Program-made: the position numbers and the translations under genes | The notes under the pieces: model-generated | What the model was told of the DNA's origin: nothing | Seen by the model: only the letters and a program-made list of their open reading frames with translations | Databases searched by the model: none | Assembly: GCA_947631765.1 (NCBI GenBank) | Contig: CANRMP010000013.1 | Coordinates: forward strand, 141-64,140 | DNA: 64,000 nucleotides | Source of the DNA: an uncultured Clostridia bacterium | GTDB taxonomy: Bacteria; Bacillota; Clostridia; Oscillospirales; CAG-272 | Direction: 5' to 3' | Shown: piece after piece, positions 46,769 to 62,134 of the stretch | How positions within the stretch are numbered: the stretch's first letter is position 1 | Layout of the letters: each line of letters begins with the position of its first letter

Positions 46769-46960
46769 GAATTTGGGCAAAAAAATAGAGCGCCCGATGT
46801 TACTCGGAGGCTCTGTCGTTGCACGATTGCGCATAATCGTAAAAAACTTTGAAATATCACAGATTGTCTTGAAAATAGGATGATTTTGTGCTATACTATT
46901 AAATGGATTTGTGTAAGTACGCCCCTGCCGGGAGAAAGGACAAAAAATATGGCAGTATCC
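46769..46960 (+). repeat. Direct repeat copy 1 (about 190 bp), left bracket of the defence cassette
   Basis: Aligns by eye with 63733-63917. The 39-nt core 46821-46859 is identical to 63781-63819. It contains a promoter, an RBS and the first four codons (ATGGCAGTATCC). Confidence 0.8.
46869..46897 (+). promoter_or_regulatory. Sigma-A-type promoter inside the direct repeat
   Basis: TTGAAA (46869-46874), 17-nt spacer ending in TGC, TATACT (46892-46897). The same element is present in copy 2. Confidence 0.55.
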
Positions 46961-47161
46961 TATAAGAAATTATGGCACTTACTTTTGGATCGGGATATGA
47001 AAAAGAAAGATTTGCAACAGGCGGCGGGCTTAACTGCCTATGCGATCAATAAGCTGAGCAGAAACGAAGCGGTTACTACCGATACGCTCGCAAAAATATG
47101 CAGAAGTCTTGATTGTACGGTAGATGACATTATGGAAATTCTGCCGGAAGATATAGAATAA
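46949..47161 (+). CDS. Small XRE-family HTH regulator (70 aa)
   Basis: MAVSYKKLWHLLLDRDMKKKDLQQAAGLTAYAINKLSRNEAVTTDTLAKICRSLDCTVDDIMEILPE is a one-domain HTH_26/XRE type. Start at ATG 46949, behind the GGAGAAAGGA RBS. Confidence 0.75.
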   Translation: MAVSYKKLWHLLLDRDMKKKDLQQAAGLTAYAINKLSRNEAVTTDTLAKICRSLDCTVDDIMEILPEDIE

Positions 47162-47288: not shown

Positions 47289-49811
47289 GTGTTAATAGTG
47301 AGCGATTTAGAAATGAGAAGTCTCATGGCATCAGGTAATAAGCAATCAAAATGGGAAATCCATGAAGACGTTATCCTTCTTGCTGGTTACCTCGAATGGT
47401 TGCAAACAAACCAGCCAAAATCTAAAATTGTTAAGCGCATTTCTGCAGACTTGCGCCAAATGGCGGTAAATCGCGGCATTGAAATAGATAGCATCTACCG
47501 AAATGAGAATGGAATTTCATACCAGATTCAGAGCATGGATTCTGCATACAAAGGCAAAAAGGTGTATGTCCCAGCAACAAGATTATTTAAAGAAACCGTG
47601 GAGTTGTACCGCACAGACACAGAGAGATACTTCAAAATACTTGAGGAGGCCAAAAGCATGATTGCAGCCAAACAGGATAACAAAGATGCTTTCTTAGCAT
47701 GGGCTGAATCTACCTTTTCGGCCAATAGATATAAATGGATAGAGAAAAATATTCTGAAAATGGAGGAACTAGCTATTTCCTCTGCATTAATAACCGGCTC
47801 ACTATTTGAAGTTACGGATTTAGAAACACTGCAAACTATTTATAAAACAGCGGAAAAAAACGTATTTTTCAGAATAAAAAACAGAAAATTTTTCAGGAAA
47901 ATAGTTGATGATTTTAAAATTTATATACAGTATTGTACACGACTGCCGAAAAAAGAAAACCAAGGAGCTGATGTAAAATCCTCTGATATTGTCAACAATG
48001 CAAAAGCGCAAAGCGCTATCGTTCCTTCGAAGGAATCGGGTGTCAAGGCGACATCATCTAATGATTTGATTTCTGAAAATATTTCTAAATCAGCCTCTTG
48101 CGAAGCCGAATTTCTTAACTATTTACAGAATACTGCCAAACTTTCTACTAACACTTGCGCTGCGTATGTTTCCTCCGTTAAAAGTGCAGAACGCTATGCC
48201 ATTGAGCATGGTCTTGCTTCCTGTTCTCTTTTCAATAAGAACGAAGAAACAATTATAGCAACGGCAACAGAATTGTACGGCAAGCCAGATTTCATTAAGT
48301 TTAATGAACAACAACATAATCGTTTTAGCGCTGCGATTAACAAACTACTAGAATCAATAGGCGCTAAAATTCCAGAAAAGGCACTTGTGTCTCGTGGAGG
48401 CAATCACGATCATCAAAGTATTACCTCGCCACAGGTAAATAGTGATATAGTTGCAGTGCTGAAGCAGCACTATGAGTATGGATTCAAATATGATTCTATA
48501 AGGGAGCTTATGCGCTTCCGTCAATTTGCGGATGCGATGAGTATCACGCTCCCGGAAGAAGATGAAATTTTAAAAGCTTCTATCCTGTCATCCGGCACTC
48601 TTATTGACGACAAGGTGTACTACAAAAGTGACGATATGCTGCAGGAACTTCAGCGCATCATTGATGATGTATTTTCTTCCGGTGCAGGCGTTATTTACTA
48701 TGAAAGTCTATTTGAAAACAAGCAGGAATGGATGGAGTCCCATGTGATTACCTCTCCCGATATGCTCAAGGAGTATCTTCAGCATAATATCTCAGGGTAT
48801 TCCTTCTCAAAGAAGTTCATGGTTAAAGGTAACAGATGTTCTGAAAAGGAAGCTGTCACTGATGAGTTAAAAAGAATTTGGGGAACACATCCGGTGGAAA
48901 GCGTATACAAGCTGAATGATTGTCTGCCGTACATCCCGCTAGAAAATATCTGGCGTGTGATATCTGGGAATGACCTTTTTGTATTAGCCTCCGAGGGGGA
49001 ATATTTGTTTATCGACCGTTTCCGTATCACAAAAGACGAGGAAGAAGATATTCTCGACTTTGTGGACGAGACTTGTGAGGAAAATGGTTTTGCTTCGCTT
49101 TGCGATGTTCCTCTGGGCAGTATTGAAGAAGAGAACTACGAGCTTACGCAAGCCACAATATACAATGCAATATATAAAAAAATACTATCCAGCAAATATC
49201 ATCTGAACGGGAAGATCCTTACAAAGGAAAAATCTGAGTTGGATGTCGTAATGCTACTGAAGCAGTACATAAAAAATAAGGACGAATGCACCTTTGATGA
49301 GGTCTCAGATAAGGTGGTAGAATTGACCGGGGGGATAAACCGTCAATATGCATTTCAGGCGCTTTATGATAATATGGTGCGCATAGACAAAAACCATTTT
49401 GTGGCAGATCGGTTTGTAGATTTTTCTATAGACGAAGTTGATACCGTATTAGCTGATTTTGTTACAGATCATTTTCGAGCAATTCGTGATATAACCACCT
49501 TTGCCATGTTTCCTATCTGCGGGCAAAACTGGAACCATTATTTGCTAGAAAGTTTTTGCTATAAATACAGTAGCAAATACAGCCTCCATGTACTTAACTT
49601 CAACGATAAGAATGCCGGGATTATTGCAGAAAGAGATTTTAACAAGAAATATAACGAAATGCTTGCCATTGCCCTTGCAAGAACTGATATAGAACTGCTA
49701 CCGGAAGTTATCGGGGAATACCTGTTCAACATGGGTTATATGGCCAAGCGCAAATATGCCAAGCTGGACGAAATTGCGCAACAAGCTTTGATATTACGGA
49801 AAGAGAGGTGA
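47289..49811 (+). CDS. Large protein of unknown function, first gene of the BREX-like operon
   Basis: 840-aa ORF with no P-loop, methyltransferase or nuclease motif visible. Its stop lies 4 nt before the brxP start. The start is uncertain (GTG 47289, ATG 47313 or ATG 47325). Confidence 0.6.
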   Translation: MLIVSDLEMRSLMASGNKQSKWEIHEDVILLAGYLEWLQTNQPKSKIVKRISADLRQMAVNRGIEIDSIYRNENGISYQIQSMDSAYKGKKVYVPATRLFKETVELYRTDTERYFKILEEAKSMIAAKQDNKDAFLAWAESTFSANRYKWIEKNILKMEELAISSALITGSLFEVTDLETLQTIYKTAEKNVFFRIKNRKFFRKIVDDFKIYIQYCTRLPKKENQGADVKSSDIVNNAKAQSAIVPSKESGVKATSSNDLISENISKSASCEAEFLNYLQNTAKLSTNTCAAYVSSVKSAERYAIEHGLASCSLFNKNEETIIATATELYGKPDFIKFNEQQHNRFSAAINKLLESIGAKIPEKALVSRGGNHDHQSITSPQVNSDIVAVLKQHYEYGFKYDSIRELMRFRQFADAMSITLPEEDEILKASILSSGTLIDDKVYYKSDDMLQELQRIIDDVFSSGAGVIYYESLFENKQEWMESHVITSPDMLKEYLQHNISGYSFSKKFMVKGNRCSEKEAVTDELKRIWGTHPVESVYKLNDCLPYIPLENIWRVISGNDLFVLASEGEYLFIDRFRITKDEEEDILDFVDETCEENGFASLCDVPLGSIEEENYELTQATIYNAIYKKILSSKYHLNGKILTKEKSELDVVMLLKQYIKNKDECTFDEVSDKVVELTGGINRQYAFQALYDNMVRIDKNHFVADRFVDFSIDEVDTVLADFVTDHFRAIRDITTFAMFPICGQNWNHYLLESFCYKYSSKYSLHVLNFNDKNAGIIAERDFNKKYNEMLAIALARTDIELLPEVIGEYLFNMGYMAKRKYAKLDEIAQQALILRKER

Positions 49812-49815: not shown

Positions 49816-52113
49816 ATGTATTCCTATACTTTTGATTCGAGAACAGGCGGAATCATACTAAATTCAACTCCTACAAATTTTTCCAAAGAACCAAGGCCTG
49901 TTTACGCTGCGGAGTTGGAAATTCTTGGCTTTGATAAATACTGGGATTACGACAAACAGAACGACATGCCCTATATGTGGGCAGAGTCTAATCTTTACTG
50001 GTATAGGGGCGTGCAGATAGCCAAGACAAAAGGCGGTGACCTTTATACAGCTCCGGAACTTCAACCAACCAGAGATGAAAACGGTCGGATACCCTTTAGC
50101 AAGTTTGACGGTTCAACGTTGGAACATATGGACATAGAAGCTATGTGTGCCGCCAATGAAGATTTGCTTACCGTTATAGAGGATTCCACTGTAAAGAAAA
50201 TTGTTAAGGAGTATGAAAAGTTTAAAGGCAAATTGGATATCTTTCATGTGGCTTTCTCGGGTGGTAAAGATAGTGCAGTGCTGTTGGATCTTGTAAAGAA
50301 GGCACTGCCCAAAGGTAGCTTCGTTGTGATTTTCGGAGATACTGGCATGGAGTTTCCAGATACTTATGAGGCAGTAGAGAAAACAAAAAAGCAATGCGAA
50401 GCGGATGGTACTCCCTTCTATATTGCCCGTTCGCATTTTGAACCTAAAGAATCATGGGAGCTTTTCGGCCCACCGTCATGCACGTTAAGATGGTGCTGCA
50501 GTGTGCATAAAAGCACACCACAAACGCTGAAAATGAGAGAGATAACCGGAAAAGAAAATTACACCGGACTGGATTTTGTTGGAGTGAGAAAACACGAGAG
50601 CCTTGCTCGGAGCACTTATGAATATGAGAATTACGGCAAAAAGCAAAAGGGACAACATAGCTTTAATCCTTTGCTGGAGTGGACTTCGGCTGAAATATGG
50701 CTCTATATGTATGCACGCAATTTAGTTGTCAACAAGGCTTACATAAAGGGTAATTCTCGTGCTGGATGCCTCTTATGCCCTATGTCGGGCGGATATAGTG
50801 ATTTTATTCGTAGATATAACTATACAGAGAACATCGACTCATTTATCGATATTATCAAACGGAAGAATAACTGGGATAGCTATAGTGAAGCTGAACTCCA
50901 TTCTTATGTAACATCTGGTGGGTGGGATAATCGAAGAAGCGGCAGAGGAATAGCGGGGAATGTTCTAAAGTACAAAGAAAAGGCCTCTGAAGGCGAAATA
51001 ACCATAGAGATAATAAATCCAAATTCAAATTGGAAAGAATGGATTAAGACGGCCGATACCACAACTATACCAATAAAGATAAAAGAAAACTCAAATGGTG
51101 CCACTTTTGTTTTATTAGAGAAAGATGTAAAAGCGCATCCGACCGCCGGAAAGATTATTAGGCAGTCTCTTAAAAAAGCAGCTTATTGTGTAGGATGTCG
51201 AGTTTGTGAAACTAACTGCAAGGGTGGACACATACATTTTGAAAACGGAAAGGTAGCAATTACAGATTGCATACAATGTCACGAATGTCACGATATACCC
51301 GCAGGATGCCACGCATACAATTCGTTGAAAATTCCACAAGGAGAAAAAAAGATGAAGACAATAAACTGTTTCGATGACCACGCCCCGAAAAGGGATTGGC
51401 TTGTATCATTCTTTGATTTGCAAGATGAGTTTTTTACGGAGCACACTCTGGGTCCTAATATGTTCACGCATTTCAAGCGGTTTCTTCGTGACGCTCACCT
51501 CATAGATGGTAACAAGTGCACGGATTTTTCTGCATTAATTTGTGATTTGGGATGGGAGAGCGATACTGCGCTTGCATTAATGCTTGTAAATCTCTCTTAT
51601 GAAAATGCCCAATTCGAATGGTACATCAATCAAATGGATATTGGCTATTTTTATGAGAACAAATTATTAAAAGAGAGATTGATGGCTGACGACATAAAAG
51701 AAAAAGCCGCTAATTCGATTGTAAAGTCTTTCAAACGTATAGTTAGCACCCCGTTCGGAACTGTTTTGAACTTTGGATATGTAACTGATGACGATGATAT
51801 GGTACGTACTAAGTGCTCCATCAGTGATAATCGAGTTGTACTTTATGCACTTTATAAATTTGCCGAAAAGTGTAACCTAGATAAAGAATTTCATGTTTCT
51901 TATCTCTACAACGATACTATTGAACGTGACGGCGTCAGTCCCGTGCGCATCTTTGGCTTGTATGATGAAGAGGAATTCAAATCCATTCTCTTGGGGCTTT
52001 CCTCTGTATACCCGGAATTTATCAATGCAACATTCACCAACGATCTGCAAACCATCACTCTACGTGATAAGACAAGCGACGATGTGCTGAACCTGTTTAA
52101 GGAGGAAATATAA
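49816..52113 (+). CDS. brxP: BrxP-like PAPS-reductase/DndC-like PP-loop ATP pyrophosphatase with a Cys-rich (Fe-S-like) insert and a C-terminal extension
   Basis: PP-loop FSGGKDS (50257-50274), RWCCSVHK, GVRKHES and RAGCLLCP. Cys cluster CVGCRVCETNC..CIQCHEC..GC at 51187-51309. The last roughly 265 aa are unassigned. Confidence 0.8.
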   Translation: MYSYTFDSRTGGIILNSTPTNFSKEPRPVYAAELEILGFDKYWDYDKQNDMPYMWAESNLYWYRGVQIAKTKGGDLYTAPELQPTRDENGRIPFSKFDGSTLEHMDIEAMCAANEDLLTVIEDSTVKKIVKEYEKFKGKLDIFHVAFSGGKDSAVLLDLVKKALPKGSFVVIFGDTGMEFPDTYEAVEKTKKQCEADGTPFYIARSHFEPKESWELFGPPSCTLRWCCSVHKSTPQTLKMREITGKENYTGLDFVGVRKHESLARSTYEYENYGKKQKGQHSFNPLLEWTSAEIWLYMYARNLVVNKAYIKGNSRAGCLLCPMSGGYSDFIRRYNYTENIDSFIDIIKRKNNWDSYSEAELHSYVTSGGWDNRRSGRGIAGNVLKYKEKASEGEITIEIINPNSNWKEWIKTADTTTIPIKIKENSNGATFVLLEKDVKAHPTAGKIIRQSLKKAAYCVGCRVCETNCKGGHIHFENGKVAITDCIQCHECHDIPAGCHAYNSLKIPQGEKKMKTINCFDDHAPKRDWLVSFFDLQDEFFTEHTLGPNMFTHFKRFLRDAHLIDGNKCTDFSALICDLGWESDTALALMLVNLSYENAQFEWYINQMDIGYFYENKLLKERLMADDIKEKAANSIVKSFKRIVSTPFGTVLNFGYVTDDDDMVRTKCSISDNRVVLYALYKFAEKCNLDKEFHVSYLYNDTIERDGVSPVRIFGLYDEEEFKSILLGLSSVYPEFINATFTNDLQTITLRDKTSDDVLNLFKEEI

Positions 52114-52114: not shown

Positions 52115-55100
52115 ATGTCGGTACAAAATCTGAAATATTGTGAATATTTTGATGTTGATGAAAAGTATTTTCCTTGTATTGACGAGTCCGCCATCAACAG
52201 CGGTGCGGCTTGGGATACTACTTACCCGCATCAGACCTTCATAGATCTGCTCACTCTGTCAGAAAAAATGCTAAGTGGCAGCACAAATCGTTCCATCTGG
52301 ATTCACGGTGCATATGGAACCGGTAAATCTCAGTGTGCTTATACGCTCAAAAAGTTATTGGAAGTGCCAGAAAATGAAGTTAGAGCATATTGGGACAAGT
52401 TTGAACCGCTAAAAAAGAATCCCGTTCTGCTGGAAAAACTTATCGGGCATAAAGCACAGGGCATAGTGACGGCCTACCGATATGCTTCCGGGAGCATTAC
52501 GACACCACAGCAACTTTTCTTTGCCGTGCAGGAAAGCATTAAAAAAGCATTAGATTCAAATGATGTTTCCTACAAGGGCGAAAACTCTCTAAAGGAAAGC
52601 GTTATTTCTTGGCTGCAAGACCCTATTCACAATCAATTTATGAACGCTTTGCTTCAGAAGTCAAAGTGGATGTCCACCTTTTCCCAGTCCTCTGCCGATG
52701 AGATCATAAACACATTGAAAAAAGGCAGCGACGTTTCATCTCTGATGGACAGTATTTTTAGCCTTGCCGCAGAAGAGGGTATTACAGCTCTTGATCTCTC
52801 CGCAGATTTTCTGCGTGACTGGATTGTGGATATTATCGATAAAAATAATATTAAACTCGTCCTTATCTGGGATGAATTCAGCGACTACTTCCGTCAAAAC
52901 AGTACATCTCTCGGCGAGTTTCAGAAAATCGTTTCCATCTGCCAAGAGAAACCTTTCTACTTCGTTATTGTTACGCATCCCCTATCCTCTCTTGCAAAAA
53001 AATTTGACAGCGGAGATAAGACCAATCCATGGTCTGTTGTGCAACAACGTTTTGATAAAGTGGAAATCACTTTACCAGACAACATTGCTTTTGACCTTAT
53101 CGGCCATGCGTTTAATGTAAAGCCCGCAGCAAAAGCAAGCTGGGTGCAGATGACTGGAGATTTGAATGCTTATGTGGCAAATGCTTGCAATGCCGTCATC
53201 AAAGTGGCAAATATTAGCGGCGAAAATGTGATGCGGGATATTTTGCCGATTCATCCAATTGCGGCACTCGTTCTAAAAAATATTGCCTCTGCTTTCCAGT
53301 CCAATCAGCGTAGCATGTTCGACTTTATCAAAACACCGAAAGATATGGATGTCAAGGCATTCCAGTGGTTTATCCAGAATACTAGCCCACTTTCCGACCG
53401 ACCCTATCTGACCGTAGATATGTTGTGGGACTTCTTTTATGAGAAGGGCAAAGATTACCTTTCTCCAGACATCAAGCTTATTTTGGACACCTTTCCTCAG
53501 CAAACGCAACTAAATGATAAAGAAAAAATCGTCCTGAAGACTATTTTGATTATGCAGTCTATTGACCAGAGGCTAGGCGGTACCCTGCCGATTCTAAAGC
53601 CTACTGATCAAAATCTCAGCTATGCGTTTGAAGGCGATGCCGGCGAACTAGAATCCTCCTGCAAGAGCATCGCAAAAGCTCTGGTAAAAAAGGGTATCTT
53701 GATTGAAAATCCGATTGCAGACGGCAAAAAAGTGTATTCCGCTGCTGTCCTTGCAGGTGATAGCGCCAAAATTGAGGCATTCAAAAAGGATATCCGTGAA
53801 AAGCAAGGCTCAACCACTAAGCTTGTCTCGGAAGGAGCTGCTGTCGCAACGGCACTTAGCCTTCCTCCTGCGCTGAAGCTTCGCTATGCGCTGGATCTGG
53901 AAAGCGGCAAACTGCCAGTTGTGACTATGTCCGATTTCAAGAAAGCTATGGATGCTTTGAAGAACAAAGATGCGGACTGGCACTTTTATGCCGTGCTTGC
54001 GTTAGCAAAGACCGACGAAGAAGCACAAAACTTCCGCACCCTGATAAAGAAAACCATCGCAGAGCCTGAATATAAAAATATTGCTATTATCGATGCTTTG
54101 TCCACACCTTTGGGATTAGAAGCTTTTGAGCAGTATGTAGATTACTCCGCTATGTCAATGTATTACAATGGCAACAACGGACAGCAATCAAAAGAAAATG
54201 CAAAAAAAGCAAAAGATGTGCTGGAGCGTGATTGGAAGGAACGTATTCACGACGGACAGTTCATAGTCTTTACCTATGCAAATCAGGACGGCGAAAAAGC
54301 AACCGGCGCTAGTGCTGTTCATACTATCATGCAAACGATTGTCCTGAATCGATTCAAGCATGTACAAGACTTTACAAAAGGCCTTTCTGAAACTCAGTTG
54401 AAGCTCACTACTCCAAAGCCCGTTGCAAAATATGGTATGGGTGGAATGGAAATCAAAGGACTGATTGCCGGATGTGAAAAGTCCGTTCTGGGTAAATTCT
54501 GGAACAAGAAAGAATATTGGAAAGATGAGTCTCTCTCAGACGAGCATATTGTCATTATAAAAAAGTCTGTTGACAAAATGATTAACGATGCTTTTAAGAG
54601 TAGTGGAAAGATTTCAATAGGTGAAATTTACGATCATTTAGAAACCACCTTCGGATTTTCCACCTGTAACCTTTCTGCATTCATTACTGGTTTTTTGCTA
54701 AAAGAATACAGCGCAGAGCCATATCGTTCCATGGATGCGGAAGGGCACAGGGATTCCATGACTCCAGACAAGCTGTCTGAGATGATTGGAAACTATATTG
54801 GTAAGAGTCCGAAATCCACCTATATTGTCAGCTTGACCGAAGAGGAAAAGGCGTTCTATGAACTCACGGAAAGCGCATGGAATATTACCGCCAACACATG
54901 CTCCTCGCCCCAGCAGGCAGGCACACTCGTTCTTTCGAAAATGAGAGACCTGTCATATCCTGTTTGGTGTCTGGAAGACGTGGACACCACGGGGGTATTT
55001 GACCTTGTTAAACTTTATATCAAGCTCGTGCAGAGTAAAGGCGATGATGCACACGATGTGGCCAATGAAATCGGTAAAATTGCAATTCAACGACCCTCAT

Positions 55101-56287
55101 CTGCGCATAATCTAAAGACACTGCTTACTCTTGAAAACTGCAAGAAGGGTATGCATATATTCCTTGAACGTTTTGAGGGCGGTAAACTGTTGAATGTTGC
55201 CAAAGAAATCGGTGCAGATGATTTCGTCATGACGGATATTAAAAAACTATTTAGCGTTCAGTATTCTGCCCTTTGGATTGGATCGACTGGAGAGGATGAA
55301 ATCCGCAAGCTCATCACTGAATATGAAGTTGTGAAATCTACAAACATTCTTCTGAATGTTACTGCTCATTCCAAGGATGCTGCATTTAAGGAATGGAGAG
55401 AAACATTGAAGTTTATCGGATTCTCCTGTGAATCAGTCAAGACCAAAAAACCTGCACTTGATAAGTTTTTCTACAGTTTACTGCGCATTGCAAACTACGA
55501 GGATATGCTCCCAGAGCATATAAAATTATTCCTTGAAGAGATGACCAATCATATGTCTGATATTCGGGGAATACTTAATAATCCTCTATTAGTCTTTATG
55601 GATATATATGCTCCCTATCTTGAAGGCTTTACTGAGGCAGAATGTGAGGAGATCAAAAATTCCATTACATCTGAGATGTTTACTGTCTCCTCCACAGCAA
55701 GCAATGCCGCCGTGAAAAAAGCTGCAGAAGACTATAAAAAAAGTCAGGTGAAGTCGCAGCTTTATAAACTTTGGAATGACAAGACAGGAGATAGTAAAAA
55801 TCCTCGCTCTTGGTCTGAAAAATACCGCACGCCCATCCTGTGCTGTATAAAAGATACTCAGTATAGTGCCGCAAGGAAAGTGTTTGCCACACTTAACAGT
55901 AGCACACAAAGCGAAGCGGATATCAAGGAGGCTTTGGAATTTCTTCAGAAAGCTGACTTCTTTGATGACATCGCTTCCGCTGATTATCGTGATGAGTGCT
56001 TTGCTAATCATATTATTGGTGATTACACAAGCCTAATTTCAGATATAAATGCGGTAAGGGATGCACTGGAAAGCACCGGGATTAGCGCCTATGAATGGAG
56101 TGACAACCCTTATATCAGAAGCAAGGTTGATAGTCTGGCAAATGCGGAATATAATGCAGGCGGCAGTGATAAGGTTGTCGACATCATTGAGGGCATGGCT
56201 GATGCAGAACTAAAGAAATGGTTGACCGACATTGTCAGGAAGGATATGGGCCTTGGCATCAAGATCATTATTAATAAGGAGGAGTAA
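52115..56287 (+). CDS. brxC: BrxC/PglY-like large P-loop ATPase
   Basis: 1390 aa. Walker A HGAYGTGKSQ near the N-terminus and Walker B LVLIWDEFSDY. Its size and its position between brxP and pglZ match BREX type 4. Confidence 0.7.
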   Translation: MSVQNLKYCEYFDVDEKYFPCIDESAINSGAAWDTTYPHQTFIDLLTLSEKMLSGSTNRSIWIHGAYGTGKSQCAYTLKKLLEVPENEVRAYWDKFEPLKKNPVLLEKLIGHKAQGIVTAYRYASGSITTPQQLFFAVQESIKKALDSNDVSYKGENSLKESVISWLQDPIHNQFMNALLQKSKWMSTFSQSSADEIINTLKKGSDVSSLMDSIFSLAAEEGITALDLSADFLRDWIVDIIDKNNIKLVLIWDEFSDYFRQNSTSLGEFQKIVSICQEKPFYFVIVTHPLSSLAKKFDSGDKTNPWSVVQQRFDKVEITLPDNIAFDLIGHAFNVKPAAKASWVQMTGDLNAYVANACNAVIKVANISGENVMRDILPIHPIAALVLKNIASAFQSNQRSMFDFIKTPKDMDVKAFQWFIQNTSPLSDRPYLTVDMLWDFFYEKGKDYLSPDIKLILDTFPQQTQLNDKEKIVLKTILIMQSIDQRLGGTLPILKPTDQNLSYAFEGDAGELESSCKSIAKALVKKGILIENPIADGKKVYSAAVLAGDSAKIEAFKKDIREKQGSTTKLVSEGAAVATALSLPPALKLRYALDLESGKLPVVTMSDFKKAMDALKNKDADWHFYAVLALAKTDEEAQNFRTLIKKTIAEPEYKNIAIIDALSTPLGLEAFEQYVDYSAMSMYYNGNNGQQSKENAKKAKDVLERDWKERIHDGQFIVFTYANQDGEKATGASAVHTIMQTIVLNRFKHVQDFTKGLSETQLKLTTPKPVAKYGMGGMEIKGLIAGCEKSVLGKFWNKKEYWKDESLSDEHIVIIKKSVDKMINDAFKSSGKISIGEIYDHLETTFGFSTCNLSAFITGFLLKEYSAEPYRSMDAEGHRDSMTPDKLSEMIGNYIGKSPKSTYIVSLTEEEKAFYELTESAWNITANTCSSPQQAGTLVLSKMRDLSYPVWCLEDVDTTGVFDLVKLYIKLVQSKGDDAHDVANEIGKIAIQRPSSAHNLKTLLTLENCKKGMHIFLERFEGGKLLNVAKEIGADDFVMTDIKKLFSVQYSALWIGSTGEDEIRKLITEYEVVKSTNILLNVTAHSKDAAFKEWRETLKFIGFSCESVKTKKPALDKFFYSLLRIANYEDMLPEHIKLFLEEMTNHMSDIRGILNNPLLVFMDIYAPYLEGFTEAECEEIKNSITSEMFTVSSTASNAAVKKAAEDYKKSQVKSQLYKLWNDKTGDSKNPRSWSEKYRTPILCCIKDTQYSAARKVFATLNSSTQSEADIKEALEFLQKADFFDDIASADYRDECFANHIIGDYTSLISDINAVRDALESTGISAYEWSDNPYIRSKVDSLANAEYNAGGSDKVVDIIEGMADAELKKWLTDIVRKDMGLGIKIIINKEE

Positions 56288-56290: not shown

Positions 56291-58567
56291 ATGCTTTGCC
56301 AAGAAGTGCAAAACTACATATCAACTGCAAAAGGATTGCCTTTTTTCTATGTAGTTGGTGATGAAGACTACTCTTCTGTATTGGATGAATTGAAACAAAT
56401 GGATATCTCCATTGTGAGAATGAGTGATTTCTGTTCCAATGATGATAAATTTCCTAGCGTAGATGAACTGGTGGATTATTTTCAAACTTCCGATGTGGAT
56501 TATCGAAACAACAAATTTGTTGTGGTCGGTCTTGGGGAATATCTTGCGCTCAGGGGATCTGCCATTGCAGAGAAGGAACTACGTAGGTTAAAGAATACCA
56601 CCCTTGGAAATGCAAGAGCCATTCTTCTGCTAAGGGGGATTTCTATTCAGGCCACAAAAATCATCCGTGATGATAACAAGATAGTGAACCAGCAGAGAGC
56701 ATATATCTCCGTCAATTCTCTCACGAACATATCAATTACGAATGTACCGGAAGATGTTGGACTTGTTGCAAATGATGGTGTAAAACATTTGCTTCGATTA
56801 CTGGAAGACGGTGCTTGCGGAAATGTATATGCTAATACCGCACTGGTTCTTGATAACACGCTCTTTCCGATATCTAACCTCTCCGGAGCGCATTCTGTGG
56901 TAAAGCTACTTGTTAAGAACTTTACACTCGATAGTGATCTCGGTACAAAAGAACAGTGGCAACGGCTTCTGAAAGACCTAAATAAATTCGGAAAAGACAT
57001 CAAGACCGTATTTGATAAGAACGGCATTGACGAAAGAATCGTTGACGATTTGTGCTTAGCAGTTACCGGTCTTGAGTATCGAAACTGGCTGGTTTTCCTG
57101 TTTTTCAAATTAAATGCCAACCAGATACAAAACGCTTACCTGAAATTTGTGGTTGATGAAACTTTGAATTTTCAAGATTTCAAAACCAATCTTATGGTAA
57201 AAATTACGGAGCTATCCCATAAAGACCAGCGTTTTAGGCGGTTATATGATGAGAGAAAAAAGCTGCTAAAAGATTTTCCGGAAGAGGATGTTGCCATCTT
57301 CGTGAAGGCAAATGAAATTGACCCGGCAGAGAGCATCTATCGCCTGACTGATAATACACTATTGGAAAAGAAGACTGCAGTTAAGTGGGTGGCACGGAAC
57401 GGCTTTAGTGATGCCATATCCTATGTGTATCCCGCTCTTGATGCATACCTGAAGAAATATATATTTGACTGCCCTGTACTTGCAAGTGAATTGACGGAAT
57501 ACTTTGATTCTTATAAGCAACAAAAGGTTTCAAATCATATTTCAGATGACTTTGTAAAGCTCGTTGAGAAGTATGCATCTGGCATTTCTTATGCACAGCT
57601 ACCCACAAGGGACAATGCAATCAAGGCCATTGCAGACAAGAACAGTGCTTACCTGTATTGGATTGATGCATTAGGTGTAGAATACCTGTCGTATATTACT
57701 GCCCTTGCGAGGAAAAAGGGGCTGTCAATGCATATAGATATTGTTCGCTCCGATTTGCCGACAATCACATCGATAAATAAGCAGTTCTATGAACAATGGA
57801 CGGGTGGAAGGAAATATAAGGAAGAAGAACTAGATAACATTAAACATAAGGACAAGGGTGGGTATTTCTTTACAGAAGACGAAGATCCTATCCACATTCC
57901 AGCAGAGCTTGAGGTAATAGAAAGGGCCCTAAATACTGCTGCGATGGAGCTTGGCATGCATAACTGTAAATCGTTTGTTATCGCAAGCGATCACGGTGCT
58001 TCCAGATTGGCTGTCATAAAGAAGCAGGAAGTGCCGTATGAAACTGACACCAAGGGTGAACACTCTGGACGTTGCTGTAAGGCTTTTGAGGGATGCGATG
58101 TTCCTTATAAGGTTGAGGATAACGGCTTTATCATTCTTACCGATTATGGCAGATTTCGTGGCAGCCGCACAGCCAATGTAGAAGTACACGGAGGAGCCAG
58201 CCTTGAGGAAATTGTTGTGCCTGTAATTACGCTGACACTAAAAAAGCAGGCAAGTATTCAGATTACAGTTATGCATCCTGACGATATTACCGCAGATCGT
58301 CATGATGGTGTTACGCTGAACTTGTACATTTCAGATGTGGAGTCACCGGACAATATCAGTATTGTGATCGAGGATAAGCCTTATAAAGGTAAATCGGAAG
58401 ATGGATTGCATTACACCTTTGAACTTAAAGATATTAAGCGAGCAAAGACAAAACCGTACACAGCCGATGTCTTTGACGGGATTGATTTAATCGGTAGCGT
58501 TTCCTTCACGGTGAGGGGCAAAACCGCTACAGTTAAAGATGATTTTGATTTTGGCGATGAATTTTAA
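56291..58567 (+). CDS. pglZ: PglZ-domain protein (alkaline-phosphatase superfamily)
   Basis: YWIDALGVEYLSY, DLPTITSINK, IASDHGASR and VHGGASLEEIVVPVI are the conserved PglZ motifs. Confidence 0.8.
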   Translation: MLCQEVQNYISTAKGLPFFYVVGDEDYSSVLDELKQMDISIVRMSDFCSNDDKFPSVDELVDYFQTSDVDYRNNKFVVVGLGEYLALRGSAIAEKELRRLKNTTLGNARAILLLRGISIQATKIIRDDNKIVNQQRAYISVNSLTNISITNVPEDVGLVANDGVKHLLRLLEDGACGNVYANTALVLDNTLFPISNLSGAHSVVKLLVKNFTLDSDLGTKEQWQRLLKDLNKFGKDIKTVFDKNGIDERIVDDLCLAVTGLEYRNWLVFLFFKLNANQIQNAYLKFVVDETLNFQDFKTNLMVKITELSHKDQRFRRLYDERKKLLKDFPEEDVAIFVKANEIDPAESIYRLTDNTLLEKKTAVKWVARNGFSDAISYVYPALDAYLKKYIFDCPVLASELTEYFDSYKQQKVSNHISDDFVKLVEKYASGISYAQLPTRDNAIKAIADKNSAYLYWIDALGVEYLSYITALARKKGLSMHIDIVRSDLPTITSINKQFYEQWTGGRKYKEEELDNIKHKDKGGYFFTEDEDPIHIPAELEVIERALNTAAMELGMHNCKSFVIASDHGASRLAVIKKQEVPYETDTKGEHSGRCCKAFEGCDVPYKVEDNGFIILTDYGRFRGSRTANVEVHGGASLEEIVVPVITLTLKKQASIQITVMHPDDITADRHDGVTLNLYISDVESPDNISIVIEDKPYKGKSEDGLHYTFELKDIKRAKTKPYTADVFDGIDLIGSVSFTVRGKTATVKDDFDFGDEF

Positions 58568-58578: not shown

Positions 58579-60075
58579 ATGGAACTTTCCGAAAAGCTAA
58601 GAGATAATTTTGACGAGATGGTCGTCTATAAAGATTTGAAGAAAACCAACTTCTTCTCCACGTTGAGTCTCCCCGCCTTTATGCGCGACTGGCTGCTGAA
58701 AAAGTTTGAGGACGACGAGGGCGAATTTGATAAAGACGATCTTGCTAGATTTGTCAAAAAATTTATTCCTAGAAAAGATGACTGGAATGCGATAAAAAAT
58801 GACATCGTTATTGAAGGTAAAACAGTAAAATTTCTTGCCAAGGTATCTGTGAATATTGACATCAAAACCGGTGAGGTATCTTTTGCTCTGCCCGACTTCG
58901 GCTTGGGATTTAAAGAAACTATCATTGAAAGCGATGTGTGGGATTCATGCAAAGATGACCTTGTAAAAGGCCGAGATATATGGGGAATGGTAGAGCTTGG
59001 ATATCGTTCGCCAGACGATTTTGATTTTACCTTTGAGTATGAAAAAAAATCATCTAAAGCCAAAAATTCTAAAGATGGAAAAATCAAGCTTGTTTCCTTC
59101 AAGAATTTCTGTCCTTATGAGATTGATCTTGAGGACTACAAAGAGGCCCGCAAAGAATTTACTACAAGCGAATGGATTGACGTTATCCTTGGAGCTGTTG
59201 ACTATAATGCCGCCGGATACAAAACTGAAGAAGAAAAGCTCACAATGCTTACCAGACTGCTTCCGTTTGTTGAAAAGCGCCTAAATCTCATCGAGCTTGC
59301 TCCAAAGGGTACTGGAAAATCTTATCTTTTTGGAAATGTTAGCCGATATGGTTGGCTTTCTAGTGGCGGTGTTATGAGCCGAGCCAAGATGTTCTATGAC
59401 CAGACAAAGCGCCGAGAGGGATTGATTTCTGGGAGTGATTTCGTTACACTGGACGAAGTACAGACAATTTCCTTTACAGATACTGACGAAATGCGGGCTG
59501 CTTTGAAAGGCTATTTGGAACAGGGTACATTTACTGTAGGCGACTATAAAGGAACTGCAGATGCTGGCATGGTACTTTGCGGGAATATCCGCAAAGAAAT
59601 CATGGATGCAGACGGTTATGAAAATATGTTCACTGAGTTACCGCCTGTTTTCCATGAGTCAGCGTTAATTGAAAGATTTCACGGATTCATTAAAGGATGG
59701 AATATTCCTCGCATGAAAGACGATTTGAAGATAGATGGATGGGCTTTGAATTCAGAATACTTCTGTTCAATCATGCACGAACTTCGCAGCGACATGACAT
59801 ATAGAAGCATTGTGGACGAATTTATTGTTGTGCCTGAAGGAGCCGACACACGTGATACTGAAGCTGTAAAGCGAATTGCTACGGCATACCTAAAGCTTCT
59901 TTTCCCAAATGTTCAGCATGTAGAAGATATAACACCAAGAGAATTTAAGAAATATTGCTTTGATCGTGCTCGCAGAATGAGAGATACGATTAAATATCAG
60001 CTTGGCTTACTTGATGTAGAGTATGCCGGAAAGGATTTGCCGCCATTTAAAATTTATGGCATAGATGCTGAGTGA
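58579..60075 (+). CDS. brxL: BrxL-like ATPase, short form without the Lon-protease domain
   Basis: The N-terminus L..F..VVYKDL..LPAFMRDWLLKKF..G parallels the BrxL N-domain. Walker A APKGTGKSYLF and Walker B DFVTLDEVQ. The protein ends at 498 aa. Confidence 0.75.
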   Translation: MELSEKLRDNFDEMVVYKDLKKTNFFSTLSLPAFMRDWLLKKFEDDEGEFDKDDLARFVKKFIPRKDDWNAIKNDIVIEGKTVKFLAKVSVNIDIKTGEVSFALPDFGLGFKETIIESDVWDSCKDDLVKGRDIWGMVELGYRSPDDFDFTFEYEKKSSKAKNSKDGKIKLVSFKNFCPYEIDLEDYKEARKEFTTSEWIDVILGAVDYNAAGYKTEEEKLTMLTRLLPFVEKRLNLIELAPKGTGKSYLFGNVSRYGWLSSGGVMSRAKMFYDQTKRREGLISGSDFVTLDEVQTISFTDTDEMRAALKGYLEQGTFTVGDYKGTADAGMVLCGNIRKEIMDADGYENMFTELPPVFHESALIERFHGFIKGWNIPRMKDDLKIDGWALNSEYFCSIMHELRSDMTYRSIVDEFIVVPEGADTRDTEAVKRIATAYLKLLFPNVQHVEDITPREFKKYCFDRARRMRDTIKYQLGLLDVEYAGKDLPPFKIYGIDAE

Positions 60076-60076
60076 C

Positions 60077-60277
60077 ATGGAAACGAAAAAATGTTATGTC
60101 TGCGGTAAAATTCCGCTTTCTAAGGATGAGATAGGTCTTACTAAAAAGATAATCAATAAGGACGCAACGGCTTTTTATTGCTTACCTTGTCTGGCAGAAT
60201 ACCTTGAAGTTACCGAAGAAGAACTGATTGCCAAAATCGAGGAGTTCAAGGAAGAAGGCTGCACACTGTTTAAGTGA
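60077..60277 (+). CDS. Small Cys4 zinc-ribbon protein
   Basis: CYVCG..(about 32 aa)..CLPC, followed by an acidic helix. The alternative start at ATG 60065 overlaps the brxL stop. No family recognised. Confidence 0.5.
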   Translation: METKKCYVCGKIPLSKDEIGLTKKIINKDATAFYCLPCLAEYLEVTEEELIAKIEEFKEEGCTLFK

Positions 60278-60286
60278 GGAATAGCT

Positions 60287-61414
60287 ATGAAGCAGTTTAT
60301 TTATGCCGACAATGCGGCAACTACAAAATTGGATATTGATGCATTCGAGGCAATGAAACCGTTCTTGCTTGATGAGTACGGTAATGCATCGCAGCCCTAT
60401 TCTTTTGCTCGTCAACCTAAGAAAGCGCTAAGTAATGCACGAACAATTATTGCGGAATGTATAAATGCTTCGCCGAAAGAAATCTATTTTACTTCCGGTG
60501 GTACAGAAAGCGATAATTGGGCGATTAAAGGAATATCACTAAACGGAACTGTCGCTCCAATAATTACTTCGCAAATTGAACATCACGCCATTCTCAATTC
60601 CTGCAAAACAGTTGAAACGATGGGTATTCCTGTGACCTATTTGGGTGTTACAAAGCAGGGTGTTGTTGATCCGGCTGTGCTGAAAAATGCGATTGCAAAT
60701 TCAACAAAGCTTGTCTCTGTAATGTATGCGAACAATGAGATTGGGAGCGTTCAACCAATAAAAGAGCTCTGTGAAATTGCTCATAATCATGGCGCTTTAT
60801 TTCATACAGATGCTGTACAAGCCGTCGGTCATATTCGTATAGATGTTAAAGAACTGGGTGTTGATTTGCTATCTGCTTCTGCTCACAAATTTAACGGGCC
60901 TAAGGGAGTCGGTTTTTTATACATAAAAAACGGAACTCCGATTCAACCTTATGCAAACGGCGGTTCTCAAGAGTCATCGTTGCGAGCCGGAACGGAAAAT
61001 ATAGCAGCCATTGTTGGAATGGCAGTGGCTCTGAAGAAAAACTGTGAACAACTTGATCAGACACATAATCATCTTACTGGTCTGGAATACGAGTTGCTTC
61101 GTCTTCTTAGGCAGCACAGTATTCCGTTTATCCGTAATGGATCGGAAAATCACATTGCAGGAAATCTTAGCCTATCTTTTCCCAACAAAGACGGAGAGGC
61201 TATCATGCACATATTAGATCTGCACGGGATATGCGTTTCAACCGGTGCCGCTTGTGACAGTGTAAATACAGAAATATCGCACGTTTTAAAAGCTATAGGT
61301 TTGCAAGATAACTATGCCAAGGGCACAATTCGAATTTCACTCGGGAAAAATAATACAGAAAAAGATGTACGGCTAATAGCGGATTCTCTTAAGCAAATAG
61401 AATCCAAACTATAG
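60287..61414 (+). CDS. Cysteine desulfurase (class V aminotransferase, NifS/IscS/DndA-like)
   Basis: TSGGTESDN, the PLP-lysine motif SASAHKFNGPKGVG, and the active-site loop STGAACDS. Confidence 0.85.
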   Translation: MKQFIYADNAATTKLDIDAFEAMKPFLLDEYGNASQPYSFARQPKKALSNARTIIAECINASPKEIYFTSGGTESDNWAIKGISLNGTVAPIITSQIEHHAILNSCKTVETMGIPVTYLGVTKQGVVDPAVLKNAIANSTKLVSVMYANNEIGSVQPIKELCEIAHNHGALFHTDAVQAVGHIRIDVKELGVDLLSASAHKFNGPKGVGFLYIKNGTPIQPYANGGSQESSLRAGTENIAAIVGMAVALKKNCEQLDQTHNHLTGLEYELLRLLRQHSIPFIRNGSENHIAGNLSLSFPNKDGEAIMHILDLHGICVSTGAACDSVNTEISHVLKAIGLQDNYAKGTIRISLGKNNTEKDVRLIADSLKQIESKL

Positions 61415-61503: not shown

Positions 61504-61543
61504 GCCGTCTGAAAGGATATTTCGAAAAAATGGGCATCGCATT

Positions 61544-61580
61544 TTAGTCAAGTACGATTTGCCGAATCGTACTTGACTAA
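61544..61580. terminator. Perfect 16-bp hairpin, probable terminator of the operon
   Basis: TTAGTCAAGTACGATT, loop TGCCG, AATCGTACTTGACTAA, followed by a T-rich run. Confidence 0.55.
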
Positions 61581-61759
61581 ATTTTAAATTTCGGCAAGTG
61601 CGTGTTCTTTTGTACTTGATAAGACTATATGACCTCCGTTACAAAATTCGAAAACCGTGATTAAATTCCTACACGCAAATCTCATAAATCGCATGTTAAA
61701 TAGTACATTCTCTGTTATACATAGCGGCGGCAGAGATTTTTCCCTGCCGCCGCCCGGAT

Positions 61760-62134
61760 TTAACTGTAGATCAACTCATTATTGACAATCTCCGTTGCTC
61801 TGTTGCGGATATTGTTCATCCGTCCGACCCACGCCATTTGGTCTTGCGCTTTGAGCGCTTCGGTCACACCCTCACGCTCTGCCATCTGTTTTACCAGCCG
61901 GGAAAACAGTTCCTCCGCCTGCCGGTCGATGTCTGCGAGGTACTCGCTCAGCTTGCAGGCAGTGAGCAGGTTGTAGTACAAGATGCGGTGATGCTCTTTC
62001 AAATACCGCCTGTGCCGCTGTCCCCAAATACCTATGGGCTGTTCTTCCTCGGCGGGTAAAGTTAGGCAAGGGAGCCGACAGTCGCCCTGCTGTTCGTATT
62101 TCCCGCCCGTTTGCTCGAATACTGTTTTTTCCAT
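61760..62134 (-). CDS. tnpV: TnpV-family protein (transposon-associated)
   Basis: MEKTVFEQTGGKYEQQGDCRLPCLTLPAEEEQPIGIWGQRHRRYLKEHHRILYYNLL matches the TnpV pattern. Start at ATG 62134, behind the AAGGAGG RBS. Confidence 0.8.
   Translation of the reverse strand: MEKTVFEQTGGKYEQQGDCRLPCLTLPAEEEQPIGIWGQRHRRYLKEHHRILYYNLLTACKLSEYLADIDRQAEELFSRLVKQMAEREGVTEALKAQDQMAWVGRMNNIRNRATEIVNNELIYS

What the first reader, a model, noticed from the sequence alone, without database searches (positions are those of the whole stretch)
60287..61414. Cysteine desulfurase at the end of the operon gives a DndA/DndC-like (or SspA/SspD-like) sulfur-donor pair
Seen: a NifS/IscS-type enzyme with the PLP-lysine motif (SAHKFNGPKG) and a catalytic Cys loop (STGAACDS) sits 9 nt downstream of the Zn-ribbon gene, in the same operon as BrxP. 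Established: in Dnd and Ssp phosphorothioation systems a cysteine desulfurase (DndA/IscS, SspA) supplies persulfide sulfur to a PAPS-reductase-like ATP pyrophosphatase (DndC, SspD). Inference: this BREX variant may install a sulfur-containing DNA mark such as phosphorothioate, which would explain the missing PglX methyltransferase. A dedicated desulfurase is not part of the published type-4 core.
Basis: partly seen in the sequence, partly recalled or inferred. Interest (0 to 1): 0.8.

Follow-up and report, generated by a model that had tools for sequence, protein, structure and literature searches.

The report
Sulfur-donor enzyme of type-4 BREX
The gene is an intact cysteine desulfurase that forms the last gene of a type-4 BREX phage-defence operon and most likely supplies the sulfur for phosphorothioate marking of DNA, but both this gene association and the phosphorothioate chemistry of type-4 BREX were published in January 2026, so it is a good annotation and not a discovery.

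Summary
ORF 60287-61414 (+, 375 aa) is an intact class-I (NifS/IscS-type) cysteine desulfurase. It has the PLP lysine (K201) and the catalytic cysteine (C323). It lies 9 nt after a 66-aa Zn-ribbon gene and is the last gene of an eight-gene operon: HTH, 840-aa protein, BrxP, BrxC, PglZ, BrxL, Zn-ribbon, desulfurase.

The adjacency is not chance.
- Five of five homologues sampled at 67-87% identity sit in the same arrangement.
- In 80 species-level genomes anchored on PglZ, 54 of 70 informative loci carry the desulfurase directly after BrxL and the Zn-ribbon.
- The BREX-linked enzymes form one clade (NJ bootstrap 90/100) apart from nifU-linked NifS, E. coli IscS and a dndCDE-linked desulfurase.
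- They keep all catalytic residues and lack the C-terminal tail of the NifS/IscS references.

The interpretation (sulfur donor to BrxP for DNA phosphorothioation) is supported but already known. Yuan et al. (Nat Commun 2026; preprint 2024) showed that type-4 BREX makes phosphorothioate. [quoted passage not shown]

Small additions from this work:
- The desulfurase gene in this window was swapped in as a discrete cassette from a divergent BREX-4 lineage.
- The Zn-ribbon is retained in 14 of the 16 loci that lack the desulfurase.
- An uncharacterised tandem winged-helix protein precedes BrxP in 63 of 63 loci.

The parts
46880..47161 (+). Cro/C1-type HTH regulator upstream of the operon
   Evidence: Pfam HTH_26 E = 9e-19. 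A homologue was detected upstream in about 10 of the related loci. A promoter-like site lies at 46869-46897.
47289..49811 (+). Uncharacterised 840-aa protein. The N-terminus is variable (weak integrase SAM-like DNA-binding domain at residues 274-308). The C-terminal ~465 aa is a conserved tandem winged-helix array.
   Evidence: A homologue lies directly upstream of BrxP in 63 of 63 informative loci. It has no PADLOC or NCBIfam family, and in Pfam only a match to the integrase SAM-like domain. AF2 model of the C-terminal 470 aa: pLDDT 87.8. Best Foldseek PDB matches are tandem-WH proteins: UFL1 (E = 7e-6), SelB, ESCRT-II.
49816..52113 (+). BrxP: PAPS-reductase-like PP-loop ATP pyrophosphatase, Cys-rich ferredoxin-like region and C-terminal DUF4007/SspB-like domain. 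It is the presumed sulfur acceptor.
   Evidence: PADLOC BrxP E = 4e-243. Pfam PAPS_reduct E = 2e-29. Weaker SspD and DndC matches. The motifs FSGGKDS and CVGCRVCETNC...CIQCHEC are visible in the translation.
52115..56287 (+). BrxC/PglY ATPase (SspC homologue)
   Evidence: PADLOC BrxC E = 0 (1636 bits). SspC models match down to E = 3e-20.
56291..58567 (+). Type-4 PglZ
   Evidence: NCBIfam NF033445 BREX_PglZ_4, 541 bits (cut-off 140). Pfam DUF7864/7863/7862.
58579..60075 (+). BrxL, short type-4 form (no Lon protease domain was detected)
   Evidence: Pfam BrxL_N and BrxL_ATPase E = 6e-113. TIGR02688, 404 bits (cut-off 329).
60077..60277 (+). 66-aa Zn-ribbon/HTH-like protein (an alternative start at 60065 overlaps the end of BrxL)
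   Evidence: Present right after BrxL in 71 of 73 loci, and in 14 of the 16 loci that lack the desulfurase. Invariant C6, C9, C35, C38 and C62. Sub-threshold DUF2197 (16 of 20 members) and NirDL-like HTH (13 of 20) matches.
60287..61414 (+). Class-I cysteine desulfurase, the finding itself. It is the dedicated sulfur donor of the BREX-4 module.
60250..61400 (.). Recombination cassette: the segment whose nearest DNA relative switches from the L017-type to the L001-type BREX-4 lineage
   Evidence: Sliding-window nucleotide identity. Against L017 it is 85-90% up to about 60240 and 40-75% afterwards. Against L001 it is 40-75% before, 75-96% (mostly 80-96%) from about 60250 to 61390, and about 35% after the stop codon.
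61543..61581 (+). Terminator-like 18-bp hairpin followed by a T-run; the end of the operon

Best explanation
The gene encodes a PLP-dependent class-I cysteine desulfurase dedicated to the type-4 BREX module.

Proposed mechanism:
- It converts L-cysteine to L-alanine and carries the sulfur as a persulfide on C323.
- It hands the sulfur to BrxP. BrxP is a fusion of an SspD-like PP-loop ATP pyrophosphatase with an SspB-like DNA-binding domain and has a Cys-rich Fe-S-like region.
- BrxP, together with the SspC-like ATPase BrxC, places the sulfur into the DNA backbone as phosphorothioate. This is the self mark that replaces PglX methylation.

The enzyme is an optional, exchangeable terminal cassette. 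It makes the mobile BREX-4 island independent of the host's housekeeping desulfurase. Loci that lack it presumably borrow IscS, NifS or SufS from the host.

Shown here: gene identity, intact catalytic residues, conserved operon position, clade structure and the cassette exchange. Shown in the literature for other type-4 systems: phosphorothioate synthesis by BrxP plus BrxC. Inferred: persulfide transfer from this enzyme to BrxP, and phosphorothioation by this locus.
For: Identity:
- Aminotran_5 E = 4e-80; PADLOC SspA and DndA E = 1e-128.
- Best PDB sequence matches are all cysteine desulfurases.
- H99, D175, Q178, S198, H200, K201, C323 and R349 are each at least 97% conserved in 60 distinct BREX-linked sequences. 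They map with a +5 offset onto E. coli IscS H104, D180, Q183, S203, H205, K206, C328 and R354; the IscS numbering comes from established knowledge.

Association:
- Five of five homologues at 67-87% identity lie in BrxP-BrxC-PglZ-BrxL-small ORF-desulfurase arrangements with unrelated downstream flanks.
- 54 of 70 PglZ-anchored loci from different species have it in the same position.
- BREX-linked enzymes are monophyletic, NJ bootstrap 90/100.
- Pairwise identity correlates with BrxL (r = 0.67) and BrxP (r = 0.67) as well as those two correlate with each other (r = 0.68).

Specialisation: they lack the 14-24-residue C-terminal tail present in nifU- and iscU-linked NifS/IscS.

Partner: BrxP has an intact PP-loop and a Cys cluster.

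Literature:
- Type-4 BREX makes phosphorothioate; BrxP plus BrxC are minimal when a host desulfurase is present (PMC12914056).
- The desulfurase is reported in 56% of type-4 taxa (PMC12839542).
Against: - No experiment exists for this locus or for any operon-encoded BREX-4 desulfurase.
- 16 of 70 loci here, and 44% in the published survey, lack the gene.
- The validated B. salyersiae pathway was reconstituted in a host said to possess a SufS homologue, with no BREX desulfurase cloned. The gene is therefore dispensable in principle.
- The enzyme fails the curated NCBIfam cut-offs for DndA (327 against 480), NifS (437 against 531) and IscS (327 against 643). Its assignment as a DndA/SspA equivalent rests on context, not on orthology.
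- The cassette exchange shows no tight co-adaptation with one particular BrxP.
Confidence: 0.8

Rival explanations
1. The desulfurase serves only to build or repair the [4Fe-4S] cluster of BrxP, as DndA does for DndC in vitro. The sulfur that enters DNA would come from another donor.
For: BrxP has a ferredoxin-like CxxCxxCxxxC...CxxCxxC region (also noted in PMC12839542). DndA was characterised as able to assemble DndC as an Fe-S protein (You et al. 2007, cited).
Against: In Dnd and Ssp systems the desulfurase is accepted as the source of the phosphorothioate sulfur. The BREX-linked enzymes lack the C-terminal tail of the scaffold-linked NifS/IscS references. The locus encodes no U-type scaffold. 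The two roles are also not mutually exclusive.
Confidence: 0.1
2. It is a housekeeping NifS/IscS gene that lies next to the BREX operon by chance or by hitch-hiking on the mobile element.
For: The best curated NCBIfam model is NifS (437 bits). The gene is absent from 16 of 70 related loci.
Against: - The position after BrxL and the Zn-ribbon is conserved in 54 of 70 species-level loci and in all 5 homologues sampled, with varying flanks.
- It forms a separate clade from nifU-linked NifS of Oscillospiraceae (Vescimonas, 43% identity) and Monoglobus.
- No nifU, iscU, mnmA, thiI or nadA gene is adjacent.
- The 9-nt gap suggests translational coupling.
Confidence: 0.03
3. The desulfurase feeds a different sulfur chemistry within BREX-4, for example thiolation of a nucleotide signal or of a protein or RNA target, and not the DNA backbone mark.
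For: PAPS-reductase-like PP-loop enzymes also thiolate tRNA (ThiI, MnmA, TtcA; noted in PMC12914056). The roles of the Zn-ribbon and the 840-aa protein are unknown.
Against: Phosphorothioate dinucleotides were measured in several type-4 BREX strains, and BrxP plus BrxC were sufficient in a heterologous host. BrxC and BrxP are homologous to SspC and SspD-SspB.
Confidence: 0.05

Closest known systems
Type-4 BREX-associated cysteine desulfurase (proposed 'sixth core component'; PMC12839542, NAR 2026)
   Same: The same enzyme class sits at the same place in the same system and is accompanied by the same small zinc-finger protein. The window's gene is a member of this group: it falls in a monophyletic clade and holds the conserved position.
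   Different: Nothing essential differs. Additions here:
- The frequency is higher (77%) in the PglZ subfamily closest to the window.
- The window's copy was acquired by cassette exchange from a divergent BREX-4 lineage.
- The zinc-finger gene is retained whether or not the desulfurase is present.
DndA (Streptomyces lividans) / IscS in DndABCDE phosphorothioation
   Same: Both are class-I PLP desulfurases with the PLP lysine and the catalytic loop cysteine. Both are encoded next to a PAPS-reductase-like PP-loop enzyme and can be replaced by housekeeping desulfurases.
   Different: It is not an orthologue. TIGR03235 scores 327 bits against a cut-off of 480. The PDB DndA 3vax scores 169 bits, against 244 for E. 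coli IscS and 263 for the T. maritima NifS-like protein. A dndCDE-linked Halorubrum desulfurase falls outside the BREX clade. No dndBCDE genes are present.
SspA of SspABCD (Vibrio cyclitrophicus)
   Same: The functional position is the same: desulfurase, then SspD-like (BrxP N-terminus), SspB-like (BrxP C-terminus) and SspC-like (BrxC). The PADLOC SspA model matches full length at E = 1e-128.
   Different: PDB SspA 6m4j scores only 215 bits, lower than the IscS/NifS structures. The partners are fused and embedded in a BREX module with PglZ and BrxL.
Housekeeping NifS-NifU of gut Clostridia (e.g. Vescimonas fastidiosa, Monoglobus pectinilyticus)
   Same: Same fold and same catalytic residues, with about 43% identity.
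   Different: The housekeeping enzymes are followed by nifU (and mnmA) and carry a 14-19-residue C-terminal tail, which the BREX-linked enzymes lack. They also fall in a separate clade.

Membership tests
Class-I (IscS/NifS-type) cysteine desulfurase, Pfam PF00266 | Full-length match to Aminotran_5 above the gathering score | tested here: met
   270 bits against a cut-off of 21.5, residues 5-362.
Class-I (IscS/NifS-type) cysteine desulfurase, Pfam PF00266 | PLP-binding lysine in the S-x-H-K motif, and a catalytic cysteine in the mobile loop | tested here: met
   K201 in SAHK and C323 in STGAAC. Both are at least 97% conserved in 60 BREX-linked sequences, as are H99, D175, Q178 and R349.
Class-I (IscS/NifS-type) cysteine desulfurase, Pfam PF00266 | Cysteine desulfurase activity (alanine plus enzyme persulfide) | not testable with these tools
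   Needs an enzyme assay.
BREX type 4 | Adjacent brxP, brxC, pglZ and brxL, and no PglX methyltransferase | tested here: met
   PADLOC BrxP E = 4e-243, BrxC E = 0, PglZ E = 7e-192, BrxL E = 1e-222. NF033445 BREX_PglZ_4 is above its cut-off. No methyltransferase lies in 46880-61414.
BREX-4-associated desulfurase group (PMC12839542) | [quoted passage not shown] | tested here: met
   It lies 9 nt after the Zn-ribbon gene, which follows BrxL. The same layout occurs in 54 of 70 loci.
BREX-4-associated desulfurase group (PMC12839542) | Groups with other BREX-4-linked desulfurases and not with housekeeping enzymes | tested here: met
   NJ tree, 68 sequences. The BREX-linked clade has bootstrap 90/100; window+L001+L003 has 100/100. 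The reference set is limited to 8 outgroups.
DndA (NCBIfam TIGR03235) | Score at or above the curated equivalog cut-off | tested here: not met
   327.5 bits against a cut-off of 480.
DndA (NCBIfam TIGR03235) | Linked to dndBCDE genes | tested here: not met
   There are no dnd genes in the window. BrxP matches the DndC models only weakly, E = 1e-6.
NifS (TIGR03402) / IscS (TIGR02006) | Score at or above the curated cut-off, and linkage to a NifU/IscU scaffold gene | tested here: not met
   NifS 436.8 against 530.75. IscS 327.4 against 643.2. No scaffold gene is adjacent. The C-terminal tail of the scaffold-linked references is absent.
SspA (SspABCD) | Desulfurase encoded with sspB, sspC and sspD | tested here: inconclusive
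   The PADLOC SspA model matches at E = 1e-128, but the DndA model matches equally well and neither has a curated cut-off. The partners are BREX homologues of SspB, SspC and SspD, not canonical ssp genes.
Phosphorothioate-modifying system | Phosphorothioate-linked dinucleotides in DNA that depend on the operon | not testable with these tools
   Shown for other type-4 BREX systems by LC-MS/MS and genetics (PMC12914056), not for this locus.

The most novel reading that the evidence does not exclude
The BREX-4 desulfurase clade may not be a redundant copy of a housekeeping enzyme. It could be a specialised donor: monophyletic, lacking the C-terminal tail of scaffold-linked NifS/IscS, and exchanged as a cassette between BREX-4 lineages. 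Phosphorothioation would then require it in hosts whose own desulfurases cannot serve BrxP. It might work in a complex with the near-universal Zn-ribbon protein and the universal tandem winged-helix protein, neither of which has been characterised experimentally.
Probability: 0.25. Interest if true: 0.45.

Novelty: already known. Interest (0 to 1): 0.22.

Why it matters
The locus is a clean, complete example of a phosphorothioate-type (type-4) BREX island carried on a mobile element. The closest relatives come from gut Clostridia. Type-4 BREX is reported to be enriched in gut microbiomes, and phosphorothioate is an oxidation-sensitive DNA mark.

The central idea is published, so the remaining value is practical:
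- The locus gives a self-contained eight-gene cassette with its own sulfur donor for heterologous reconstitution.
- It points to three open questions: whether the operon-encoded desulfurase is needed, what the Zn-ribbon protein does, and what the universally conserved tandem winged-helix protein upstream of BrxP does.

Tried and rejected
- The first genome-collection scan gave no answer. The repeat worked.
- Chance adjacency or a housekeeping NifS was rejected on conservation, clade structure and the absence of scaffold genes.
- I could not obtain S. lividans DndA or Vibrio SspA sequences for the tree. I used PDB bit scores and a Halorubrum dndCDE-linked desulfurase found in the plasmid collection instead.
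- A Roseburia plasmid desulfurase groups as sister to the BREX clade. I tested it as a possible BREX remnant, and its neighbours show no similarity to BrxL or the Zn-ribbon.
- Loci without the desulfurase were checked for a replacement sulfur donor. The genes after the Zn-ribbon are unrelated to each other (AAA_14/DUF4143, KAP NTPase, TraG-like, IS200, Schlafen, AlaRS, GDSL lipase). No class-V aminotransferase lies within the sequence held on either side, at most 10 kb.
- Zn-ribbon as a persulfide relay through its invariant C-terminal Cys62: no support. The C-terminal half looks HTH-like (sub-threshold NirDL-like HTH in 13 of 20 members; a non-significant BirA N-terminal match at E = 0.6). 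The gene also persists without the desulfurase. The idea is neither confirmed nor excluded.
- The 840-aa protein has no PDB sequence match with a 20-sequence profile. hhalign against BrxP/DUF4007 found nothing (probability 0.7%).
- The full-length AF2 model of the 840-aa protein, built on a shallow alignment, was poor (pLDDT 45) and was discarded. Only the C-terminal model (pLDDT 87.8) was used.
- Rakesh et al. 2024 on phosphorothioation machinery (PMC10853773) does not mention BREX.

Full report
**1. Observation**

The window holds a low-GC block (about 0.41, against 0.46-0.56 in the flanks). It carries a tightly packed + strand gene row:
- 46880-47161: HTH
- 47289-49811: 840-aa protein
- 49816-52113: 765 aa
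- 52115-56287: 1390 aa
- 56291-58567: 758 aa
- 58579-60075: 498 aa
- 60065/60077-60277: 70/66 aa
- 60287-61414: 375 aa

Profile searches identify the four middle genes as the type-4 BREX core:
- BrxP: PADLOC E = 4e-243; Pfam PAPS_reduct.
- BrxC: 1636 bits.
- PglZ: NCBIfam BREX_PglZ_4, 541 bits against a cut-off of 140.
- BrxL: TIGR02688 above its cut-off.

The last ORF is a full-length class-V aminotransferase-fold enzyme (Aminotran_5 E = 4e-80; PADLOC SspA and DndA E = 1e-128). Both quoted motifs are present, SAHKFNGPKG at residues 198-207 and STGAACDS at 318-325, and the gap to the Zn-ribbon gene is exactly 9 nt. An 18-bp hairpin followed by a T-run at 61543-61581 closes the operon.

**2. 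Is the adjacency more than chance?**

I looked up the genomic context of five homologues of the desulfurase at 87, 80, 69, 69 and 67% identity. All five lie in the order BrxP, BrxC, PglZ, BrxL, a 65-66-aa ORF, desulfurase, and what follows is unrelated in each case.

A scan of one genome per species, anchored on PglZ, found 510 relatives. I analysed the best 80 loci by tblastn with the window's proteins:
- The Zn-ribbon gene follows BrxL in 71 of 73 informative loci.
- The desulfurase follows it in 54 of 70.
- Of the 16 loci without the desulfurase, 14 still have the Zn-ribbon.
- In those loci the genes beyond are heterogeneous, and no other class-V aminotransferase was found in the sequence held, at most 10 kb either side.

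Pairwise identities of the desulfurase correlate with those of BrxL (r = 0.67) and BrxP (r = 0.67). This is as strong as the correlation between BrxL and BrxP themselves (r = 0.68).

**3. What kind of desulfurase is it?**

In 60 distinct BREX-linked sequences, 67 positions are at least 97% conserved. They include H99, D175, Q178, S198, H200, K201, C323 and R349. By a constant +5 offset these correspond to the catalytic set of E. coli IscS (established knowledge).

The best solved-structure matches by sequence are all cysteine desulfurases:

| PDB entry | Protein | Bits |
|---|---|---|
| 9wep | cysteine desulfurase | 300 |
| — | NFS1 and T. maritima NifS-like | 263 |
| — | E. coli IscS | 244 |
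| 6m4j | SspA | 215 |
| 3vax | DndA | 169 |

None of the curated NCBIfam equivalog cut-offs is reached: NifS 437 against 531, DndA 327 against 480, IscS 327 against 643.

Housekeeping enzymes from related gut Clostridia are only about 43% identical. These include Vescimonas and Monoglobus NifS, each followed by nifU, and a Lachnospira eligens enzyme next to mnmA.

I built a neighbour-joining tree of 68 sequences. The BREX-linked enzymes form one clade (bootstrap 90/100). It excludes these housekeeping enzymes, E. coli IscS, a cyanobacterial nif-cluster NifS and a Halorubrum desulfurase encoded right after dndCDE.

The BREX-linked enzymes end 0-10 residues after the window's C-terminus. The scaffold-linked NifS and IscS references carry 14-24 further residues.

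The enzyme is therefore a member of a BREX-4-specific lineage of class-I desulfurases. It is a functional analogue of DndA and SspA, not an orthologue of them.

**4. A detail specific to this window**

The closest BREX cores (L011-L017) have BrxL at 93-97%, BrxC at 85-92% and the Zn-ribbon at 80-88% identity to the window. Their desulfurases are only 61-65% identical.

The closest desulfurase (L001, 87%) belongs to a divergent BREX-4 lineage, with BrxC at 30%, PglZ at 29% and BrxL at 59%.

Sliding-window DNA identity places the switch at about 60250, in the last codons of the Zn-ribbon gene, and at the desulfurase stop codon near 61400. The desulfurase gene was therefore replaced as a discrete cassette. 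This fits a generic donor role that is interchangeable between BREX-4 lineages.

**5. Mechanism**

BrxP carries the PP-loop FSGGKDS and a Cys-rich ferredoxin-like stretch. It also matches SspD and, weakly, DndC models, and BrxC matches SspC models.

By analogy with Dnd and Ssp, the desulfurase forms a persulfide on C323. It passes the sulfur to BrxP, which together with BrxC installs phosphorothioate.

For other type-4 systems this is experimental fact (PMC12914056):
- Phosphorothioate dinucleotides were measured in Bacteroides salyersiae and other isolates that carry brxPCZL.
- A brxC deletion abolished them.
- brxP plus brxC (cloned together with mcrA) reproduced them in B. thetaiotaomicron, which the authors note has a SufS homologue.

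The transfer step from an operon-encoded desulfurase has not been tested anywhere.

**6. Comparison with what is known**

- Yuan et al. (Nat Commun 2026; bioRxiv June 2024) established type-4 BREX as the fourth established phosphorothioate modification system, in their words.
- A comparative-genomics study (NAR 2026, PMC12839542) states that a cysteine desulfurase 'not previously associated with BREX' occurs in 255 of 457 (56%) type-4 taxa. [quoted passage not shown] It attributes the patchy distribution to substitution by IscS, NifS or SufS.

The finding is therefore already known. My independent analysis reproduces it, at 77% in the PglZ subfamily nearest the window. It adds the clade test, the missing C-terminal tail, the cassette exchange and the independence of the Zn-ribbon gene from the desulfurase.

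**7. Other components**

The 840-aa protein upstream of BrxP has a homologue directly upstream of BrxP in 63 of 63 informative loci.
- Only its C-terminal ~465 residues are conserved. In some metagenomic relatives that module stands alone (461-466 aa).
- It has no PADLOC or NCBIfam family, only a match to the integrase SAM-like domain in Pfam, and no PDB sequence match.
- It is unrelated to BrxP/DUF4007.
- A confident AF2 model (pLDDT 87.8) is an array of winged-helix domains. The best fold matches are UFL1, SelB and ESCRT-II.
- It is mentioned in none of the passages I read in the two papers.
- It looks like a nucleic-acid-binding or scaffold subunit and not an enzyme.

The Zn-ribbon protein has five invariant cysteines (C6, C9, C35, C38, C62) and an HTH-like C-terminal half.

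**8. Context**

The island lies on a mobile element:
- Upstream: integrase, IS110 transposase, ParB, MobA/VirD2 relaxase and an AAA_25 protein.
- Downstream: TnpV and an AAA_14/DUF4143 ATPase.

The rest of the window encodes ordinary chromosomal functions. The closest relatives are gut or rumen Clostridia MAGs, for example an Oscillibacter sp. MAG and a Hadza-gut Eubacteriales MAG. The window holds no second desulfurase and no dnd or ssp genes.

**9. Verdict**

Interest is low for the finding as stated. The untested need for the operon-encoded desulfurase and the two uncharacterised conserved partners leave modest residual interest.

Noticed in passing
window 47289-49811 (+): An 840-aa uncharacterised protein lies directly upstream of BrxP, and a homologue is present in 63 of 63 informative type-4 BREX loci. 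Only the C-terminal ~465 aa is conserved; the N-terminus varies (ORFs of 477-1179 aa). AF2 (pLDDT 87.8) models the conserved part as a tandem winged-helix array, with Foldseek matches to UFL1, SelB and ESCRT-II. It has no enzyme domain and no PADLOC or NCBIfam family, and it is mentioned in none of the passages I read in the two BREX-4 papers.
   Followed up: partly
window 60077-60277 (+): The 66-aa Zn-ribbon protein follows BrxL in 71 of 73 loci and is kept in 14 of the 16 loci that lack the desulfurase. It therefore behaves as a BREX-4 core gene and not as a desulfurase accessory. It has five invariant cysteines, including C62 in a conserved C-terminal EEFKxxGCxLF motif. Only sub-threshold DUF2197 and NirDL-like HTH similarity was found.
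   Followed up: partly
window ~60250-61400: The desulfurase gene is a recombination cassette. DNA identity to the closest BREX core (L017) drops from 85-90% to 40-75% at about 60250. Identity to a divergent lineage (L001) rises from 40-75% to mostly 80-96%, and falls again right after the stop codon.
   Followed up: yes
window 38592-45840 and 61760-63551: The BREX-4 operon is cargo of a mobile element. Upstream lie a tyrosine integrase, an IS110 transposase, ParB, a MobA/VirD2 relaxase and an AAA_25 protein. Downstream lie TnpV and an AAA_14/DUF4143 ATPase. Similar TnpV and AAA_14 genes flank the L001 and L022 systems.
   Followed up: partly
L009 11145-13928 and L010 11145-13928: In one BREX-4 lineage a 927-aa PLD-nuclease/DEAD-helicase/DUF3427 protein is encoded 20 nt after the desulfurase on the same strand. 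It could be an added restriction effector.
   Followed up: no
L095 (Roseburia sp. 831b plasmid) 1164-4146: A plasmid-borne desulfurase groups as sister to the BREX-4 clade. It follows two hypothetical genes of 502 and 108 aa. These sizes mimic BrxL and a small ORF, but tblastn finds no similarity to BrxL or the Zn-ribbon.
   Followed up: partly
L003/L004 5985-8296: In this BREX-4 lineage PglZ is called as a 72-aa ORF plus a 649-aa ORF without the DUF7864 N-terminal region. This may be a truncated or frameshifted PglZ.
   Followed up: no
L013 vs L014 (BrxP): These two loci have nearly identical BrxC, PglZ, BrxL and desulfurase. Their BrxP proteins, however, are 87% and 64% identical to the window's. 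This suggests module shuffling at BrxP too, perhaps in a specificity-determining part.
   Followed up: no
window 63840-63917: A short stretch encodes 27 residues that are 63% identical to the N-terminus of the operon's HTH regulator (46880-47161). It could be a second related regulator gene at the window's end.
   Followed up: no
window 25015-28140 (-): A 1041-aa alpha-galactosidase (Melibiase_2 plus NPCBM) carries an embedded rhodanese-like domain at residues 725-805. The combination is unusual and unrelated to the BREX island.
   Followed up: no
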